DNA of 52,467 nucleotides from a virus, in IMG/VR virus record IMGVR_UViG_3300020215_000009, positions 1-52,467 of that record. One strand, given 5' to 3'. Positions within the stretch are counted from its first letter, which is position 1; each line of letters opens with the position of its first letter. This document shows, piece after piece, positions 1 to 52,467 of this stretch. The position numbers and the translations under genes are program-made. Under the pieces are notes generated by a model. That model was not told the DNA's origin and made no database searches. It saw nothing but the letters and a program-made list of their open reading frames with translations.

Positions 1-127
1 GGCGGTTCAAGCGCGATCACGTCCGCCAGCATCTTCGCCACGCCTAGGAGCCGTTCGCGTTCGGCGTCGGCAACTGCTATGTCTGCCGGTCCGCTCTTGG
101 GGCTGGAGTGCTTGGCGTGACAGCGAC
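1..127. repeat. Terminal overlap identical to 52341..52467 (circular assembly closure; unique length 52,340 nt)
   Basis: Base-by-base comparison: ggcggttcaagcgcgatcac...cttggcgtgacagcgac occurs at both window ends. Confidence 0.95.
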
Positions 128-2553: not shown

Positions 2554-2584
2554 CGCTCACGCTCCGTGTGAATCATCCGCCCTT

Positions 2585-2613
2585 ATATTAGCCAGTCTTC
2601 TAAATCTGCGCAA
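2585..2613 (-). promoter_or_regulatory. Sigma70-like promoter for the XRE gene 2553: TTGCGC-N17-TAATAT
   Basis: -35 = complement of 2608-2613, -10 = complement of 2585-2590, exact 17-nt spacer, in an AT-rich island. Confidence 0.45.
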
Positions 2614-2634
2614 GCCTCTCGGTCGGGACCTTCC

Positions 2635-2850
2635 GTGGCACCTGTCCCGCGTGTACGTTTCTGGTCTATGGAGACGAAGCCCATCAACCCGCGCAGGGTC
2701 CGCTACACGCAGGCGTACGTCGCCCGCCGCCGCGCCACGGCCGAGCGGAAGCGTCAGGCTGCGCATGCCGCAGAGCGAGCGGTGGCCGTGCTCTCGTTGG
2801 GAGAGGACGTCGCATGGAGGCGCTGGCAGCAGCACGACGTCGAATCATAG
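2635..2850 (+). CDS. hypothetical basic protein (71 aa; alternative ATG at 2668), divergent from the XRE gene
   Basis: Track ORF; GTG start; followed by hairpins; weak RBS. Confidence 0.4.
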   Translation: MAPVPRVRFWSMETKPINPRRVRYTQAYVARRRATAERKRQAAHAAERAVAVLSLGEDVAWRRWQQHDVES

Positions 2851-2963
2851 GGAAGTTATCCAGGCGGTTGATAACTTCCAAACGACGATGCGGCGGCATC
2901 CTGAGTGGAGCCGCCGCTTCTGCGTGAGTGGGGCACGGAGAGGCGGGATCTCCCCTTCCCGCC
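2851..2963. terminator. Three GC-rich hairpins between convergent genes (2851-2860/2870-2879; 2890-2897/2910-2917; 2942-2948/2957-2963)
   Basis: Perfect 10-, 8- and 7-bp stems read from the sequence; only a short T tract (ttct) after the second. Confidence 0.4.
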
Positions 2964-3029
2964 ACGGGCACTCAGCCGCAGCCACAAGCACCGTCTGAGA
3001 TTTGAGCTTAGCCCCGTCCGCCGGTCTCT

Positions 3030-3386
3030 CTATCCGACGCTTGGCCCCTGTTCTTCCTGCTCTATCCACATGCGGGCGAGCATCCTTGCACCATCCGTCC
3101 CGTCCCGCTCTGCCCATGCAAAGTGCTCTCGCGCGTACTCCAACCCCGTTTTCTCGGGAAATGCCAGCGGCAAGCCCGCTTCTCGCCTCAGTTCTTCCAG
3201 GGCGTACTCAGGAACGGTGTGCCCCGCAGCGCGGTGCTCCATCAGATGCTCAATCATCTCTTCGGGAGTCTGCACCGTGAAGCCAGGCGGATGATCGGGC
3301 AGTTTGCAGCCGCAGCATTCGATTCCTCGCTCGCTCTCAAACACGTACACGTCGGAACCGTCCCACCAAAAGCGACAGTAGCTCAT
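3030..3386 (-). CDS. hypothetical protein (118 aa)
   Basis: Track ORF; strong RBS aaaaagggggagggtATG; protein-like composition. Confidence 0.7.
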   Translation of the reverse strand: MSYCRFWWDGSDVYVFESERGIECCGCKLPDHPPGFTVQTPEEMIEHLMEHRAAGHTVPEYALEELRREAGLPLAFPEKTGLEYAREHFAWAERDGTDGARMLARMWIEQEEQGPSVG

Positions 3387-3521
3387 ACCCTCCCCCTTTT
3401 TTTCTTTGATCGTCCCGTCCTGCGCTCCCTGCCCCTGCGCGCTTCATGGTCCCCCGCTCTGAGGTGAGCGGATGGGATTCTCTTGAACAGGGACGGGGAG
3501 ACGCAGAACGGAATTCAGTGT

Positions 3522-3606
3522 GCGGGTAAGGGCTACGCGAGCGCCGCGGCTGGCTGTCTGCATGTGGTCCCTCGCGACTAACCGTCTTCGCGTAGCCCTT
3601 ACCCGC
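3522..3606. repeat. Perfect 19-bp inverted repeat gcgggtaagggctacgcga / tcgcgtagcccttacccgc with a 47-nt spacer
   Basis: 3522-3540 is the exact reverse complement of 3588-3606. Confidence 0.9.
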
Positions 3607-3953
3607 TCATGTGGTGCGGACGCCCCGTGTACTTGAGGGCGCCGGGATCAGCGCCAACCGTCGCAGATCGGGATCAGAGGTCCCGCGCTTCGGCCAACTC
3701 CCCCGATGGACAACGTTGCCGCTCTCGCGGTCGGTATCCACCCGCTTCATCTGCTGTGGGACCGAATGCAGGCCGGGCTTGATACCGGCTGGCGGCGTGG
3801 GCTGGTGCCTGGTACTGCGCGCGCTCCCGAGCGGTGCTGCCCCGCTCTTGTGGATCATCCTGCCTTAGACGCCACGACTTGCTCTCGCGCGCGGGGGTCG
3901 CCGCCCCTCACTGTCTTCGCACGTCCTTCCGTGCCGCTACATCCGATCCCTCA

Positions 3954-4025
3954 CAACGCAGTCCCGAATCGAACGGGAGTCCTCCGGCGTCCCGGCGCTC
4001 GCCTTCCACACAAGCTTCCTGCGCT
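3954..4025 (-). other. tRNA-like element (72 nt): canonical T arm plus pairable acceptor stem, non-canonical D and anticodon arms
   Basis: Minus strand reads AGCGCAG...GGAC TCCCG TTCGATT CGGGA CTGCGTT G. All 7 acceptor pairs form (one G-U). No 5-bp/7-nt anticodon hairpin. Confidence 0.4.
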
Positions 4026-4441
4026 ACCGCGTGCACGTGCCTGCGCTATGACGCTCCCCCGCCGCAAGATGAGGATTCAGGGGCGGGACGTGGCAGGCTA
4101 CCGACTGTAGGTGGTCTCCACCGCTCGCGCACGCCCGAAGGTCTAGCGCTTGCGGCTTCGTCGGCGTCCTCTCCACCTTGCACGCGAACCGACCAATGGG
4201 CCCGTAGGTGACCTCTACGGAGGCGGATCGAAAATCCGCGCGCCGGTTCTCTGCTTGGCTTATCGGCCTACGGGTCTTCACCGCCACCACCCTGCACGTT
4301 CCGGCTTGCGCTACTGTGGAGGCGTAAGGAGGCGCGCTGCATTTTGCTGACGGCCAGTCGGCGCCGAACGGCCTCAGGCCCCGTCTTGTTGCCGCCACCA
4401 TCCTTACGCCTCTCTTCTGGTGCGCTGCTGTGGAAGATGCC

Positions 4442-4645
4442 TCATCCTGCGTCCGCGAGAAGGGCCGTCCCTAAGGCATCAGCAAATCGGTCCAGTTGAT
4501 CGACGGTCAGATTCTCCTTGCCGTTCTCGACGGCAGATATGTAGGGCACCGTCACCCCGAGCCGTTCGGCAAGTGCCTTCTGGCTCCACCCCTTCGCCTC
4601 TCTGCTTCGGCGGATGTTGGCCGCCAGCCGGTCGCGCGTCTTCAT
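4442..4645 (-). CDS. XRE-family HTH regulator (67 aa), repressor-like partner of early switch 1
   Basis: Track ORF 4442..4771 trimmed to ATG 4645; WSQKALAERLGVTVPYISAVENGK is an XRE HTH. Confidence 0.8.
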   Translation of the reverse strand: MKTRDRLAANIRRSREAKGWSQKALAERLGVTVPYISAVENGKENLTVDQLDRFADALGTALLADAG

Positions 4646-4652
4646 GGCTCCT

Positions 4653-4681
4653 ATCTTAATCTGTCGGCTGTCTTCACGCAA
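4653..4681 (-). promoter_or_regulatory. Promoter TTGCGT-N17-TAAGAT ending 7 nt before the ATG of the XRE gene (leaderless or near-leaderless mRNA)
   Basis: -35 = complement of 4676-4681, -10 = complement of 4653-4658, 17-nt spacer, 7 nt (4646-4652) to the ATG. Confidence 0.45.
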
Positions 4682-4685
4682 GGGG

Positions 4686-4714
4686 TTGACAGCGGGCGGA
4701 GAGGACCTTAAGTT
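4686..4714 (+). promoter_or_regulatory. Rightward early promoter TTGACA-N17-TAAGTT, back to back with the XRE promoter
   Basis: ttgaca 4686-4691, taagtt 4709-4714, 17-nt spacer; the two -35 boxes are 4 nt apart. Confidence 0.5.
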
Positions 4715-4810
4715 GTCAGGTGTAAAGCGGGGCGGCAAGAGATAGTTGGGGAACAAAGGCGTCCCAACCACCCGCTCCGCCGCTGAACCCTATTGAACGG
4801 AGAAAGAGCA

Positions 4811-37236: not shown

Positions 37237-38484
37237 TTAAAACGTGCTGGTCATCCGCGGCGTGAGCTGGCGAGGGTCGAAGTGCGTCGGTTTACGGAAT
37301 CGGATGAGGGGGAACAGGCTGTACCGCACGGCGTCCCATGCGTTGTTGTGCTTGTCGATCAGCGTGGGCAGCACGTCGCCGGTCTTGGGGTCCACCTTGT
37401 ACGACCAAAGCCGCGCCTCGTCTATCGTGCCCTCGCAGTCGGGGTGAATCACGATCTTCTTGTACTGGCGCAGGTGCGCAATCCCGTCTTCCACGCTACC
37501 CGGCGGCTTGGGGCATCCCACGATCTTGGGGAAGCCGTGGCGCTTCAGGTAGCTGATGGAGTCCGGCCGGGCGCTGTCGGCGCGGATGACGTAGCCTTCG
37601 CAGCCCGGCAGGCGCCGCCTCAGGAAGTCGGGCGTGTCGTCTAGCTCCAGTTCGATTTTGTACGCCTCCCTGCGAATGTACAGGGTTTCGGCGTTAACCC
37701 AGACTTCGTTGCAGGAGAACGGGTCCTGCGAGAAGCCGAAGTCCAGTCCGTAGTAGGGTCCGTCCCAATCCTCTCCCGGCTCGAAGTCGTAGGAAACCCA
37801 TATCCCGGCCAGCACCCTGGCCTGAGAGCGCTTGTTGTAGCCGCCCAGCCAGATATGCTCGTGTGCGTCCGGATCGGTGGCGAGCGAGCGCGCAGCGTCC
37901 TTCCTGGATTCTTCAGGGCAGAACGGGTTCTGCCTGTAGGTGACGTGGACGACCACGGCGTCGGGATCGCTCGCCAGGTCCGAAAACAAGGTATCTACGG
38001 GATCGGTGGGCTGGTCCGGATTCCAGCTGAACCATATCTCAGAGCCCGGCTCCCTGATCGTCGGCAGCAGCAGTTCCATGCTGCGCTTGGATAGATTCTG
38101 CGCCTCTTCCACCCAAGCCCGCCCGAATCCCTCCAATGACTTCAGGCTGTCCGCGGTGTGGTCCTGCATTCCCTCGAAGATGATGATGCCCCGCCCGCCG
38201 CGCCTGCGGATCTCCCTCTCCAAGATATTGAATTCTCCCTCGACCCCGAACTCTCGGATCTTCTTCTCGATCAACGACTTGGCCGAAAACTTGAGGCTCC
38301 GCTGCACCTCCCGGATGCAAACGGAGCGCAGGTCGGGATTGGCAACCGACTCCTCCACTAAGAGCCCGGCGAAGAACTGGCTCTTACCCGACGCCCGACC
38401 TCCCTTCGCTCCCTTATAGCGCGCCGGTGGCAGAAGCGGTTCGGCCCATTCAGGTGTCGGAATCTCAAGGTTTATCGTCCGCAC
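37237..38484 (-). CDS. terL: terminase large subunit (415 aa), PBSX/Terminase_3-like
   Basis: Walker A GAKGGRASGKS near the N-terminus; size; followed by the portal gene. Confidence 0.8.
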   Translation of the reverse strand: MRTINLEIPTPEWAEPLLPPARYKGAKGGRASGKSQFFAGLLVEESVANPDLRSVCIREVQRSLKFSAKSLIEKKIREFGVEGEFNILEREIRRRGGRGIIIFEGMQDHTADSLKSLEGFGRAWVEEAQNLSKRSMELLLPTIREPGSEIWFSWNPDQPTDPVDTLFSDLASDPDAVVVHVTYRQNPFCPEESRKDAARSLATDPDAHEHIWLGGYNKRSQARVLAGIWVSYDFEPGEDWDGPYYGLDFGFSQDPFSCNEVWVNAETLYIRREAYKIELELDDTPDFLRRRLPGCEGYVIRADSARPDSISYLKRHGFPKIVGCPKPPGSVEDGIAHLRQYKKIVIHPDCEGTIDEARLWSYKVDPKTGDVLPTLIDKHNNAWDAVRYSLFPLIRFRKPTHFDPRQLTPRMTSTF

Positions 38485-40015: not shown

Positions 40016-40046
40016 CCCCCTTGACAGGGAGAGATGTATCCCTTAA
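39991..40046. promoter_or_regulatory. Operator-like 9-bp inverted repeat TAAGGGATA (39991-39999) / TATCCCTTA (40038-40046) bracketing both promoters
   Basis: Exact reverse complements; each half-site overlaps a -10 box. Confidence 0.55.
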
Positions 40047-40049
40047 GTT
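40021..40049 (+). promoter_or_regulatory. Rightward promoter TTGACA-N17-TAAGTT (same hexamers as 4686-4714)
   Basis: ttgaca 40021-40026, taagtt 40044-40049, 17-nt spacer; -35 boxes of the divergent pair are 5 nt apart. Confidence 0.5.
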
Positions 40050-46058: not shown

Positions 46059-46330
46059 TCACCCGTCCCCGATCCGGTCTCCACCGTCCGCCAGGAACTC
46101 TCTGACCACGAACTGCTCTAGGAGCGAGCCGTGGTTCTTGAGAAGCGTCCCGACGTTGTAGGCGTAAGCCTGTAACTGGCGTAGCGTCATGCCTTCCAAG
46201 TCCGGCACGGTCAGACAGCACGGGCACTAGGCGATTGCTCGCCTTCTCCAGCAGCATCGTGGCGCGAGGCGGCGAGGATGCGGTCCTCAAGCCGTTCGCT
46301 CACGTCTTCGGGCGTCAGGTGCGGTTTCAT
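46059..46330 (-). pseudogene. Frame-hopping locus: three successive short coding segments, each +1 relative to the previous (disrupted gene or three micro-ORFs)
   Basis: a = 46330..46214 (MKPHLTPEDVSERLEDRILAA...), b from 46257 (MLLEKASNRLVPVLSDRAGL...), c = 46190..46059 (MTLRQLQAYAYNVGTLLKNHGSLLEQFVVREFLADGGDRIGDG). High third-position G/C moves from frame to frame. Only a has an RBS. Confidence 0.35.
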
Positions 46331-46362
46331 CGCTTTCCCCCAGCGGGAGAAGTCCGGAGTGC

Positions 46363-46650
46363 TCACGTCAACACAGTTTCAGCGTGTCTAATTCTCGCGT
46401 CCACAGCCTCAACAGGAGCGAAGCCGGCCTCACGGGCGCGCACGGCCTCCATTAGTTCGCGAAGTGCTTGGGATACTTGGTTAAGCCGGTGCTCTTGTTT
46501 TTCCAAGCACGGACGGTAAATCCAGTCTATCGTGTCTGATAATTCCGGGTTGACCCCATGGTGCTTCAAGAGCGCTCGCACTTCACGCTCTTGCTGCGTT
46601 GCGTCCCACTGACTGCGACGCTCATACTTTTGGTTAGTCGGCTCGTTCAT
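46363..46650 (-). CDS. hypothetical protein (95 aa)
   Basis: C-terminal 95 codons of track ORF 46363..47136; ATG 46650 after ggaggagaaacaccg. Confidence 0.6.
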   Translation of the reverse strand: MNEPTNQKYERRSQWDATQQEREVRALLKHHGVNPELSDTIDWIYRPCLEKQEHRLNQVSQALRELMEAVRAREAGFAPVEAVDARIRHAETVLT

Positions 46651-52153: not shown

Positions 52154-52467
52154 TCAAATCTCCCACGGCAGGCTGTCTCTCCACTCCCCAATCTCGGCAA
52201 TTACCATCCTCGTATGAGGCGCGAACGTGGGCTGTTCAATGCACTGCCTCTCCAGGTTCGCCAGCAGGCGCGGGAGGTCTTCCACGAACATGGAGAGCGA
52301 GGGGTACGAGAGAAACGTGTCTTTCGCGTAGTCGAACCGGGGCGGTTCAAGCGCGATCACGTCCGCCAGCATCTTCGCCACGCCTAGGAGCCGTTCGCGT
52401 TCGGCGTCGGCAACTGCTATGTCTGCCGGTCCGCTCTTGGGGCTGGAGTGCTTGGCGTGACAGCGAC
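52154..52467 (-). CDS. 3' part of the junction-spanning gene (unique part 52154..52340; see feature 1..473)
   Basis: Track ORF 52154..52381 is only the truncated tail; the frame is open to the window end and continues at nt 473 of the circle. Confidence 0.6.
   Translation of the reverse strand, partial: RCHAKHSSPKSGPADIAVADAERERLLGVAKMLADVIALEPPRFDYAKDTFLSYPSLSMFVEDLPRLLANLERQCIEQPTFAPHTRMVIAEIGEWRDSLPWEI
52341..52467. repeat. Terminal overlap, second copy of nt 1-127
   Basis: Exact identity with nt 1-127. Confidence 0.95.

What the first reader, a model, noticed from the sequence alone, without database searches (positions are those of the whole stretch)
3387..4441. 1.05-kb ORF-free, hairpin-dense gap in the regulatory hub: candidate large structured RNA or decayed integration module
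Most genes in this genome abut or overlap by 4 nt, yet 1,055 nt here have no protein-like reading frame. Every track ORF in the region translates to Arg/Pro/Ala shadow sequence. The gap lies between two leftward genes (3030..3386 and the XRE gene 4442..4645), next to the divergent early promoters. Structure is dense. There is a perfect 19-bp inverted repeat (3522-3540/3588-3606) and a 10-bp long-range complement (4321-4330/4401-4410). Local hairpins occur at 4223-4239 and 3638-3655. Short motifs are duplicated: CGGGATCAG at 3643 and 3669, and TCTCCACC at 4115 and 4170. A tRNA-like T arm is also present. This is where temperate relatives usually carry int/attP, but no recombinase gene is visible anywhere in the genome.
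Basis: partly seen in the sequence, partly recalled or inferred. Interest (0 to 1): 0.75.

Follow-up and report, generated by a model that had tools for sequence, protein, structure and literature searches.

The report
Unannotated tRNA-shaped phage RNA island
The 1-kb gene-free stretch is not one giant RNA or a dead integrase; it holds two tandem tRNA-shaped RNA genes, one from a widespread phage RNA family missing from Rfam, flanked by very stable hairpins.

Summary
The gap at 3387-4441 is real. It lies between an XRE gene and a 118-aa gene, both on the minus strand of a circular 52.3-kb metagenomic phage genome. Gene callers place two ORFs there (83 and 125 aa). Both are orphans with non-protein-like composition.

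The claim of dense structure is only partly right. The central 680 nt folds no better than shuffled sequence, and the short duplicated motifs are at chance level. No recombinase remnant or Rfam family was found.

Two real elements lie on the transcribed strand:
- A tRNA-like cloverleaf at 4025-3954, with a canonical T arm and a 7-bp acceptor stem.
- Four nucleotides downstream, a 193-nt element at 3950-3758. It belongs to a tRNA-shaped RNA family found in more than 200 IMG/VR contigs and in cultured phages such as Caulobacter phage DMCA and Pseudanabaena phage Pan3.

The family has three helices. Across 90 sequences, 97.8% of cells pair, 17 of 18 pairs show compensatory changes, and RNAalifold recovers the same fold de novo. 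It matches no Rfam 15 family and is unannotated in every cultured phage checked.

Two very stable hairpins (z = -6.6) precede the next gene.

My best reading is a small-RNA island whose products are cut out by tRNA-processing enzymes. Their function is unknown.

The parts
4442..4645 (-). XRE-family HTH gene (67 aa), first gene of the leftward operon. It bounds the gap upstream.
   Evidence: Pfam HTH_3, E 6e-16. It has no homologue at E<=1e-8 other than itself.
4319..4412 (-). Hairpin C. It starts 30 nt after the XRE stop codon and has a 12-bp perfect core (GAGGCGUAAGGA/UCCUUACGCCUC). It buries the SD-like sequence and ATG of the doubtful 125-aa ORF. No U tract follows it.
   Evidence: z -2.4.
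3954..4025 (-). tRNA-like cloverleaf, 72 nt. Acceptor stem 7-8 bp (4025-4019 with 3961-3955). T arm UCCCG-UUCGAUU-CGGGA (3978-3962). Discriminator G3954, no encoded CCA. The middle is non-canonical. It reads either as a D-like arm plus a 4-bp/4-nt mini arm, or as a D-armless Ser(GGA)-like RNA with a variable arm.
   Evidence: The minimum-free-energy fold is a cloverleaf. ARAGORN calls it only at 95% thresholds, where shuffles give 0.0038 hits per kb. My own T-arm-plus-7/7-acceptor descriptor hits only this site and the real tRNA-Thr in the window, with 0 hits in 60 shuffles. In about 650 kb of unrelated loci it hit only true tRNAs. The Rfam tRNA model gives no hit.
3758..3950 (-). Member of a tRNA-shaped phage RNA family. 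Closing stem P1: the family-conserved 8 bp are 3944-3937 with 3771-3764, extended here to 14 bp (3950-3937 with 3771-3758). Then a 2-nt junction (CG). D-like hairpin 3934-3919 (GCACG-GAAGGA-CGUGC). Variable insert 3918-3791 (128 nt). T-like hairpin 3789-3772 (5 bp, 8-nt loop UAUCAAGC), stacked directly on the P1 3' strand.
   Evidence: Core alignment A3 has 90 sequences with the window as row 1. 97.8% of cells pair against 75.1% in shuffles (0 of 500). 17 of 18 pairs change on both sides. Slid controls give 26-38% paired. RNAalifold predicts the same structure de novo. The window copy forms all 18 pairs.
3519..3609 (-). Hairpin A: a 19-bp perfect stem (22 nt at 95%) around a 47-nt interior. 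It is the longest near-perfect local inverted repeat in the genome.
3408..3516 (-). Hairpin B: a long imperfect stem-loop of about 28 bp. It is slightly more stable on the minus strand because of one G.U pair. It ends about 20 nt before the SD of the 118-aa gene.
   Evidence: minus strand: -61.8 kcal/mol, z -6.7; plus strand: -57.5 kcal/mol, z -4.1.
3387..3407 (-). A-rich leader and strong Shine-Dalgarno sequence (AAAGAAAAAAAGGGGGAGGGU) of the 118-aa gene.
   Evidence: Read from the sequence.
3030..3386 (-). 118-aa gene of a widespread phage protein family of unknown function. It bounds the gap downstream.
   Evidence: 140 homologues. The closest homologues sit in other contexts without a gap.
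4024..4401 (-). 125-aa ORF called by public pipelines; probably not a gene. Its last two bases (4024-4025) overlap the first two bases of the tRNA-like cloverleaf.
   Evidence: Singleton. No real homologue among 1.84 billion representative proteins. Codon score 0.00. GC2 0.627, z +2.7. AlphaFold2 pLDDT 44.
3607..3858 (-). 83-aa ORF called by public pipelines; probably not a gene. It overlaps the 3' half of the family RNA. Its 'AGIKPG' is the translation of the conserved 18-mer.
   Evidence: Singleton. Codon score -0.01. GC2 0.619. Overlap with the covarying RNA helices.

Best explanation
The gap is a non-coding small-RNA island. It lies on the same strand as, and just downstream of, the XRE repressor gene in the leftward operon.

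It carries two tRNA-shaped RNA genes in tandem on the transcribed strand:
- A degenerate tRNA-like cloverleaf (4025-3954).
- Four nucleotides later, a 193-nt member of a large, previously uncurated family of tRNA-shaped phage RNAs (3950-3758).

In that family a 7-8-bp closing stem plays the part of the acceptor stem. A conserved hairpin with loop GA(A/U)GGA sits where the D arm would be. A 38-208-nt variable insert replaces the anticodon arm. A conserved 5-bp hairpin with loop UAUCAAGC (a T loop with one extra base) stacks directly on the closing stem.

Inferred mechanism:
- Both elements are cut out of the operon transcript by the host tRNA-processing machinery: RNase P at the 5' side of the 7-bp stem, and RNase Z/E or exonucleases at the 3' side.
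- The products persist as stable tRNA mimics. Their D-like and T-like loops form a tRNA-type elbow. Their cellular target is unknown.
- Hairpin C, and the pair of very stable hairpins A and B just upstream of the next gene's ribosome-binding site, act at the RNA level. They are likely substrates for double-strand-specific processing, 3'/5' end protectors or attenuators. They would uncouple the repressor and small-RNA part of the transcript from the downstream early genes.

Shown: the non-coding nature of the gap, the family membership, the three covarying helices, and the significance of the hairpins. Inferred: transcription, processing by tRNA enzymes, the elbow mimicry and the role of the hairpins.
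For: Non-coding:
- Six-frame Pfam and PHROGs scans are empty; PADLOC and NCBIfam are also empty.
- The two called ORFs are orphans. Their codon score is about 0 against 0.27 +/- 0.09 for real genes. Their GC2 is above every real gene.

Family:
- Each conserved motif occurs in at least 120 IMG/VR contigs, against about 2 expected.
- 153 of the 212 fetched loci carry both motifs, mostly with 7-12 consecutive closing-stem pairs.
- 97.8% of cells pair; 351 cells are compensatory against 87 in shuffles; 17 of 18 pairs covary; slid controls collapse.
- RNAalifold gives the same fold.
- 3'-motif variants are compensatory: C-G, A-U, U-A and G-C.
- The window copy forms all 18 pairs.

Likeness to tRNA genes:
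- The closing stem drops from at least 94% paired at positions 1-7 to 80% at position 8 and 62% at position 9.
- The T-like stem abuts the closing stem with no spacer.
- Flanking genes are diverse, as for tRNA genes.
- In 16 of 16 loci with an ARAGORN tRNA within 400 nt, the tRNA is on the same strand. Several tRNAs start 13-25 nt after the conserved 18-mer of the element.

Cloverleaf.

Hairpins: z -6.6, -6.7; unique in the genome.

Strand: the purine-rich minus strand matches the flanking minus-strand genes, and one G.U pair favours the minus strand.
Against: - There are no transcript data, so transcription and processing are untested.
- The cloverleaf is not called by ARAGORN at default settings or by the Rfam tRNA model. 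Its folding energy is unremarkable (z -1.0). My descriptor for it was defined after seeing it.
- Family members were collected by exact matches to the two conserved motifs. Variation inside those motifs is therefore under-sampled. Only the closing stem is free of this bias.
- No conserved CCA or discriminator follows the closing stem.
- About 680 nt of the gap remain unexplained.
- None of the three hairpins is followed by a U tract, so a terminator role is not supported by the consensus.
Confidence: 0.55

Rival explanations
1. The family element is a cis-acting site rather than a trans-acting RNA. It could be part of an attachment or integration site, or a packaging-proximal (cos/pac region) signal. 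The window copy would then be a relic of a lost integration module.
For: - In Caulobacter phage DMCA the element lies in the 546-nt gap abutting the 3' end of int.
- Terminase, portal and HNH genes are the most frequent recognisable neighbours.
- The window genome has no recombinase gene.
Against: - The closing-stem sequence is free to vary, and all four Watson-Crick pair types occur at every position. This is selection on pairing, not on a DNA sequence shared with a host target.
- Contexts are diverse: only 2 integrase and about 7 large-terminase neighbours in 61 loci.
- The window copy is 31 kb from the terminase gene.
- No recombinase remnant is present.
- The neighbouring cloverleaf's T-arm-plus-acceptor 22-mer is absent from 185,579 genomes.
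Confidence: 0.12
2. The element, the cloverleaf or both are working adaptor RNAs. They would be unusual tRNAs or tmRNA-type molecules that are aminoacylated and used in translation.
For: - A 7-bp acceptor-like stem, a T-like arm stacked on it, and co-orientation with tRNA genes.
- The cloverleaf can be drawn with a 7-nt loop that has U33, GGA and A37, plus a variable arm.
- In Bordetella phage PHB04, a reduced version of the motif follows a tmRNA-like tag reading frame.
Against: - There is no fixed-register anticodon stem in the 38-208-nt insert.
- The T loop has 8 nt and no conserved CCA or discriminator follows.
- Pair 3-70 is never G.U.
- ARAGORN finds no tRNA or tmRNA here at default settings. 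No Rfam tRNA or tmRNA model matches.
Confidence: 0.08
3. The gap is mostly decaying or captured DNA with no function. The RNA elements would be dead copies and the hairpins incidental.
For: - About 680 nt have no signal of any kind.
- There is weak 3-nt GC periodicity in one minus-strand frame (p = 0.016).
- G+C is at the 90th percentile of the genome.
- The cloverleaf is degenerate.
Against: - The family element is intact in all 18 pairs and both conserved loops.
- Hairpin A has a mismatch-free 19-bp stem, and hairpins A and B together score z -6.6.
- The region is 100% identical in independent assemblies, so no decay is in progress.
Confidence: 0.12
4. The 83-aa and 125-aa ORFs are real, fast-evolving orphan genes, as the public gene calls imply.
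For: - Both were called by automatic pipelines.
- Both lie in the same frame, which has only 4 stops in 1 kb.
- There is a plausible SD sequence before the 125-aa ORF.
Against: - No homologue exists in 15 billion proteins.
- Codon score is about 0 and GC2 is outside the range of real genes.
- AlphaFold2 gives pLDDT 44.
- The 83-aa ORF runs through covarying RNA helices.
- Four stops in one of six frames is not unusual at this G+C (my estimate from base composition).
Confidence: 0.05
5. The whole 1 kb is one large structured RNA.
For: - The location inside an operon.
- Several long-range complementarities.
Against: - The centre of the gap folds like shuffled sequence on both strands.
- No Rfam family matches, including GOLLD, ROOL, HEARO and OLE.
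- Family members elsewhere are 100-300 nt and sit in unrelated flanks.
Confidence: 0.04

Closest known systems
Phage-encoded tRNA genes (Rfam RF00005; ARAGORN)
   Same: - A 7-bp closing stem.
- A T-type arm stacked on that stem, and a GG-containing hairpin at the D-arm position.
- Scattered intergenic location in phage genomes.
- Same strand as neighbouring tRNA genes.
   Different: - Element 2 has no anticodon arm. A 38-208-nt variable insert takes its place.
- Its T loop has 8 nt (UAUCAAGC), its D-like stem has 5 bp, and no CCA or discriminator is conserved.
- Neither element passes ARAGORN default thresholds or the Rfam tRNA model.
Bacterial and phage Y RNAs (YrlA; Chen et al. 2014, PMC4201824)
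   Same: - Non-coding RNAs with a tRNA-like domain built from D-like and T-like stem-loops and closed by a terminal stem.
- Found in some phages.
- M. smegmatis YrlA is cleaved by RNase P and receives CCA (PMC4201824).
   Different: - YrlA has the permuted order T-AS-D, a GNCGAA Ro-binding motif, and lies within 4 kb of a Ro60/TROVE gene (PMC4201824).
- Here the order is D...T as in tRNA.
- No TROVE family was found among 91 ORFs.
- The Rfam scans gave no YrlA match.
tmRNA tRNA-like domain
   Same: - An acceptor stem plus T arm with a large non-tRNA interior.
- Found in phages.
- In Bordetella phage PHB04, a related reduced motif follows a tag-like reading frame.
   Different: - No tag reading frame and no pseudoknot series.
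- Pair 3-70 is never G.U.
- No ACCA end.
- No ARAGORN or Rfam tmRNA call.
GOLLD and ROOL, large ornate RNAs of phages often found near tRNA genes (from my own knowledge)
   Same: - Phage-borne non-coding RNAs of unknown function that tend to sit beside tRNA genes.
   Different: - Those are 580-800 nt with many conserved domains and are in Rfam.
- No Rfam family of any kind matched here.
- This family has a conserved core of about 60 nt.
Long double-stranded RNA processing hairpins in phage early transcripts, such as RNase III sites of T7 early mRNA and the lambda N leader and sib (from my own knowledge)
   Same: - Hairpins A and B are stems of 20 bp or more inside an early operon, just upstream of a gene's ribosome-binding site.
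- They lack a U tract.
   Different: - There is no sequence or structural consensus to test against.
- Cleavage is untested.
- The host and its RNases are unknown.
Catalogue of about 10,000 candidate structured RNAs from IMG/VR (PMC10690425)
   Same: - Same data source.
- It reports tRNA-like candidates and candidates upstream of terminase genes.
   Different: - I could not check whether this family is among them.
- No paper in the library contains the conserved sequences.

Membership tests
tRNA-shaped phage RNA family (GA(A/U)GGA loop and UAUCAAGC loop; defined here) | Closing stem of 7-8 bp whose 3' strand directly follows the T-like hairpin | tested here: met
   Window pairs 3944-3937 with 3771-3764, 8 of 8. 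Across the family, positions 1-7 pair in at least 94% of sequences.
tRNA-shaped phage RNA family (GA(A/U)GGA loop and UAUCAAGC loop; defined here) | 5' hairpin of 5 bp with loop GA(A/U)GGA, placed 2 nt after the closing stem | tested here: met
   Window GCACG-GAAGGA-CGUGC at 3934-3919. This is the compensatory stem variant, shared with 10-11 of the 90 aligned members.
tRNA-shaped phage RNA family (GA(A/U)GGA loop and UAUCAAGC loop; defined here) | 3' hairpin of 5 bp with 8-nt loop U-N-U-C-R-A-G-Y | tested here: met
   The window 18-mer at 3790-3773 is identical to the family consensus. Covariation in the stem is shown.
tRNA (RF00005) | 7-bp acceptor stem and a 5-bp T stem with 7-nt loop TTCRANY | tested here: met
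   Met by the cloverleaf at 4025-3954. Not met by the family element, whose loop has 8 nt.
tRNA (RF00005) | Canonical D arm and 5-bp/7-nt anticodon arm, with detection by standard tools | tested here: not met
   ARAGORN at default settings finds nothing; it calls the site only at 95% thresholds. The Rfam covariance model gives no hit at E<=10. The family insert has no fixed-register stem.
YrlA / bacterial Y RNA | Match to the Rfam model; T-AS-D order; nearby Ro60 (TROVE) gene | tested here: not met
   No Rfam hit. The order here is D then T. No TROVE family was found among 91 ORFs. The defining features are taken from PMC4201824.
tmRNA | Tag reading frame, G3.U70, ACCA end, ARAGORN or Rfam tmRNA call | tested here: not met
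   Pair 3-70 is never G.U. A relaxed ARAGORN run gives only an implausible 34-aa tag.
Known large phage or bacterial ncRNAs (GOLLD, ROOL, HEARO, OLE, group I/II introns, riboswitches) | Score at or above the Rfam gathering threshold | tested here: not met
   The whole window at the gathering threshold yields only tRNA-Thr. The gap at E<=10 yields only chance miRNA-type hits.
Phage integration module (int plus attP) | Tyrosine or serine recombinase gene, or a recognisable remnant of one | tested here: not met
   Six-frame Pfam and PHROGs scans of the gap are empty. Genome-wide Pfam finds no recombinase.
Phage integration module (int plus attP) | attP core identical to the 3' end of a host tRNA or tmRNA gene | tested here: inconclusive
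   The 22-mer (T arm plus 5 nt of acceptor) is absent from 185,579 species genomes. The host is unknown and may not be represented.
Intrinsic (Rho-independent) terminator | G+C-rich hairpin followed by a U tract on the transcribed strand | tested here: not met
   No U tract follows hairpin A, B or C on the minus strand. Hairpin B is followed by an A tract.
Protein-coding gene | Homologues, genome-typical codon usage, and GC2 below GC1 below GC3 | tested here: not met

The most novel reading that the evidence does not exclude
The tRNA-shaped family is a new class of phage-encoded tRNA mimic. It would be excised by RNase P and RNase Z, fold into a tRNA-type elbow through its GA(A/U)GGA and UAUCAAGC loops, and engage a host or phage factor that recognises the tRNA elbow and acceptor. 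Candidate factors are a tRNA-targeting defence nuclease, a modification or CCA-adding enzyme, a ribosomal site, or the packaging machinery. The variable insert would give specificity. The window would then show two such mimics, apparently part of the repressor's transcription unit.
Probability: 0.3. Interest if true: 0.8.

Novelty: new variant of a known kind. Interest (0 to 1): 0.62.

Why it matters
Phage tRNA-like RNAs sit where phage and host translation and defence meet, and few classes are known.

This analysis turns an anonymous 1-kb gap into a concrete, testable object:
- It is an RNA family with a tRNA-like outline and strong covariation.
- It has hundreds of members in viral metagenomes.
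- It has copies in cultured, tractable phages (Caulobacter phage DMCA on C. vibrioides CB15, and Pseudanabaena phage Pan3).
- It is annotated nowhere and absent from Rfam 15.

The analysis also shows that automatic gene calls in such regions (the 83-aa and 125-aa ORFs) can be translations of structured RNA. If the RNAs are tRNA mimics, their target could reveal a new phage counter-defence or a way of taking over host translation.

Tried and rejected
Searches for relatives of the gap that led nowhere:
- blastn of the gap against INPHARED phages and PLSDB plasmids found no match.
- Related loci fetched through the 118-aa protein, the 183-aa protein, XRE and the Rad52/Erf gene gave only distant, non-syntenic hits or nothing, in IMG/VR, JGI metagenomes and GTDB genomes.
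- Contexts of the closest 118-aa homologues have no gap.
- XRE has no close homologue in 5.8 billion proteins.
- The ENA copies of the genome are 100% identical in the region, so no microdiversity is available.

A wasted search:
- A six-frame concatenated protein query returned nothing, not even the self ORFs.

Ideas considered and rejected:
- Recoded stop codons. The four in-frame stops are TAG, TAG, TAA and TGA.
- Tandem repeats, iterons or a CRISPR-like array. None are present.
- Hairpin A as a repeated mobile element. Its arm is unique in the window and absent from IMG/VR.
- A sigma-70-type promoter inside the gap. There is none. The phage's own strong promoter type, TTGACA-N17-TAAGTT, occurs only at 4686 and 40021.
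- An attP tRNA fragment. There is no exact match in 185,579 genomes.
- A defence or NCBIfam function for the ORFs. Nothing matched.
- AlphaFold2 on the 125-aa ORF gave an uninformative pLDDT of 44.

Other dead ends:
- A literature search by sequence string found no paper.
- The 19-nt T arm shared with other IMG/VR contigs is not evidence of homology. Those contigs carry tRNA-Met genes or an unrelated tRNA-like family.
Full report
WHAT THE WINDOW IS

The window carries a 127-nt terminal direct repeat. The same genome occurs in ENA assemblies in different rotations, 100% identical over 3000-4800. It is therefore a circular genome of about 52.3 kb with 62% G+C.

Its ORFs match phage families: large terminase, major capsid, Rad52/Erf, Gp157, Mom, Gam-like, DnaC-like, Lar and three XRE regulators. 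No integrase, resolvase or transposase family matched any of 91 ORFs.

A strong promoter type, TTGACA-N17-TAAGTT, occurs twice on the plus strand, at 4686 and 40021. The XRE gene at 4442-4645 is read leftward from the divergent control region at 4646-4792. The gap follows it on the same strand.

CHECKING THE OBSERVATION

They differ greatly in significance.

- Folding scans against dinucleotide shuffles show real excess structure only at 3387-3640. This stretch holds two long hairpins (z -6.6 minus strand, -5.3 plus strand).
- 4290-4445 is modestly structured (z -2.4).
- The central 679 nt fold no better than shuffles (z -0.15 and +1.5).
- Apart from hairpins A and C, perfect local inverted repeats of 8 bp or more are at chance level. 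So are the duplicated 8- and 9-mers.

Public pipelines call two minus-strand ORFs in the gap, of 125 and 83 aa. I do not think they are genes:
- They are singletons among 15 billion proteins.
- The 125-aa ORF has no real homologue among 1.84 billion representatives.
- Their codon log-odds are about 0. Real genes score 0.27 +/- 0.09 and shadow ORFs -0.16 +/- 0.19.
- Their GC2 of 0.62-0.63 exceeds that of all 61 reference genes.
- AlphaFold2 gives pLDDT 44.
- Six-frame scans against Pfam and PHROGs, and ORF scans against PADLOC and NCBIfam, are empty.

A weak GC periodicity in the frame of the two ORFs (p = 0.016) is the only hint of past coding.

NO SYNTENIC RELATIVES

The immunity region is unique.
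- XRE has no homologue at E<=1e-8.
- The nearest homologues of the 118-aa protein sit in gene-dense contexts without a gap.
- Scans of IMG/VR, JGI metagenomes and GTDB genomes with flanking proteins gave only distant, non-syntenic loci.

FIRST ELEMENT: A tRNA-LIKE CLOVERLEAF

These pair 7 of 7 with a segment placed so that the whole measures 72 nt. The minimum-free-energy fold of 4028-3951 is a cloverleaf.

Evidence that it is not chance:
- ARAGORN calls it only at 95% of its default thresholds. At that setting, shuffles give 0.0038 hits per kb.
- A descriptor of my own (5-bp T stem, TTCRANY loop, 7/7 acceptor at 69-79 nt) hits only this site and the genuine tRNA-Thr in the window. It gives no hit in 60 shuffles.
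- In about 650 kb of unrelated loci, every hit of this descriptor, run with a slightly wider length window (69-94 nt), was a true tRNA.

Evidence against a working tRNA:
- The middle of the molecule is non-canonical.
- The Rfam tRNA model does not match.
- The T-arm-plus-acceptor 22-mer is absent from 185,579 species genomes, which argues against an attP copy of a host tRNA end.

SECOND ELEMENT: A MEMBER OF A LARGE RNA FAMILY

A marginal 33-nt blastn hit to an unrelated locus led to the 18-mer AGCCGGTATCAAGCCCGG, on the minus strand at 3790-3773.

The contexts showed a common architecture:
- A closing stem of free sequence.
- A conserved 5' block, CGGC-GUGGA(A/U)GGACAC-GC.
- A variable insert.
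- The 18-mer.
- The 3' strand of the closing stem.

A second scan with the 5' block again hit at least 120 contigs. Most of these have the 3' block within 330 nt, with compensatory variants C-G, A-U, U-A and G-C. Of the 212 fetched loci, 153 carry both blocks.

I aligned 90 distinct cores, with the insert replaced by a linker and the window as row 1. I then counted pairs for a three-helix model:
- 97.8% of cells pair, against 75.1% in shuffles (0 of 500).
- 17 of 18 pairs change on both sides.
- 351 cells are compensatory, against 87 in shuffles.
- Sliding the partners by 1-3 columns drops pairing to 26-38%.
- RNAalifold predicts exactly the same structure without guidance.

The window copy forms all 18 pairs. 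It uses the compensatory GCACG/CGUGC version of the 5' hairpin.

SHAPE OF THE FAMILY

The outline is that of a tRNA.
- The closing stem pairs in at least 94% of sequences for 7 bp, then 80% and 62% for the next two positions.
- A 2-nt junction follows.
- Next is a 5-bp hairpin with loop GA(A/U)GGA, where the D arm would be.
- An insert of 38-208 nt, median 83, has no fixed-register stem.
- Last is a 5-bp hairpin with 8-nt loop UAUCAAGC. This reads as a T loop with one extra base and abuts the closing stem without a spacer.

No Rfam 15 family matches the window copy or the twelve example-locus scans. This holds at the gathering threshold and at E<=5. No paper in the library contains the conserved strings. 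A 2023 catalogue of about 10,000 candidate viral RNAs may include it, but I could not check.

WHERE THE FAMILY SITS

Flanking genes are diverse: large terminases, portal, HNH, lysins, integrases, DnaB, RecT/ERF, RNR and ThyX. That is the pattern of an autonomous RNA gene.

16 of 153 loci have an ARAGORN tRNA within 400 nt, always on the same strand. Several of these tRNAs start 13-25 nt after the conserved 18-mer of the element.

Cultured phages carry the element in unannotated intergenic DNA:
- Caulobacter phage DMCA has a complete element next to the 3' end of int.
- Pseudanabaena phage Pan3 has it about 0.8 kb upstream of TerS.
- Partial matches occur in Bordetella, Alcaligenes, Komagataeibacter and Acidovorax phages.

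READING OF THE GAP

On the transcribed strand the order is:
1. XRE
2. Hairpin C
3. About 290 nt without signal
4. tRNA-like cloverleaf (4025-3954)
5. Family RNA (3950-3758)
6. About 150 nt without signal
7. Hairpin A (3609-3519)
8. Hairpin B (about 3516-3408)
9. A-rich leader and SD sequence
10. The 118-aa gene

I read this as a small-RNA island. Its two tRNA-shaped RNAs are probably released by tRNA-processing enzymes. The long hairpins, none followed by a U tract, are probably RNA-level processing or protection signals.

The non-coding nature of the gap, the family membership and the helices are shown. Transcription, processing and function are inferred. About two thirds of the gap remains unexplained.

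VERDICT

There is structured RNA, but it is not a 1-kb RNA. There is no trace of a decayed recombinase.

The find that matters is the tRNA-shaped family. It is a new variant of the known kind 'phage tRNA-like RNA', and it is testable in cultured phages.

Noticed in passing
L082, L085, L086, L089, L093 (79 nt); L088, L094 (86 nt); L083, L087, L096 (87 nt). Example: L082 4153-4231.: A second uncalled tRNA-like family in IMG/VR contigs. It has a 5' GGGCAUG/GGGCGUG acceptor strand, a single long arm, the T arm CUCCCGUUCGAUUCGGGA, then CAUGUCC/CACGUCC-A-CC. Pair 5-68 shows a compensatory change, and G3.U70 and a discriminator A followed by CC are present. ARAGORN and Rfam (gathering threshold) do not call it. 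It looks like an alanine-type or tmRNA-TLD-type mimic.
   Followed up: partly
L310 about 2330-2545 (Bordetella phage vB_BbrM_PHB04, MF663786 about 46234-46449): An unannotated 1.5-kb gap holds a tmRNA-like 5' segment (GGUUUCGACGGG) and a tag-like reading frame (ANDDYIRAAA, then stop). A reduced version of the motif follows directly: a long closing stem and a GCCGGGGAUAAGCCCGGC hairpin, with no D-like hairpin. This may link the family to phage tmRNA-like genes.
   Followed up: no
window 4686-4714 and 40021-40049 (plus strand): Two perfect copies of TTGACA-N17-TAAGTT share the string CCTTAAGTT. They are probably the phage's strong early promoters. The first drives the rightward operon, divergent from XRE. 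A weaker TTGCGT-N17-TAAGAT upstream of XRE would give a nearly leaderless mRNA.
   Followed up: partly
window 2554-3029: A second ORF-poor stretch of 476 nt lies on the other side of the 118-aa gene. It has strong local structure (z -3 to -5.9 at 2775-2999) and a doubtful basic 60-71-aa ORF on the opposite strand (2635/2668-2850). The 118-aa gene is thus bracketed by structured non-coding RNA on both sides.
   Followed up: partly
window 1-127 and 52341-52467: A 127-nt exact terminal repeat, which is an assembly overlap. The genome is circular or terminally redundant, about 52,340 bp.
   Followed up: yes
window, whole genome: Mu-type accessory genes (Gam-like end protection, Mom-like modification) and a DnaC/IstB-like ATPase are present. 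No transposase or integrase family was found. How or whether the phage lysogenises is unclear.
   Followed up: no
window 37259-37353 (plus strand): At 95% thresholds ARAGORN also calls a 'tRNA-Arg(acg)' inside the 415-aa gene at 37237-38484. It is presumably a false positive, and it shows the limit of relaxed tRNA calls.
   Followed up: no
L309 2391-2936 (Caulobacter phage DMCA, PQ480021 25447-25992): The family element sits in a 546-nt unannotated gap between a transposase gene and the 3' end of the integrase gene, which is the expected attP neighbourhood. It is worth checking whether attP overlaps the RNA.
   Followed up: no
It did not even return the two self ORFs that are in the collection. 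That negative result should not be used.
   Followed up: yes
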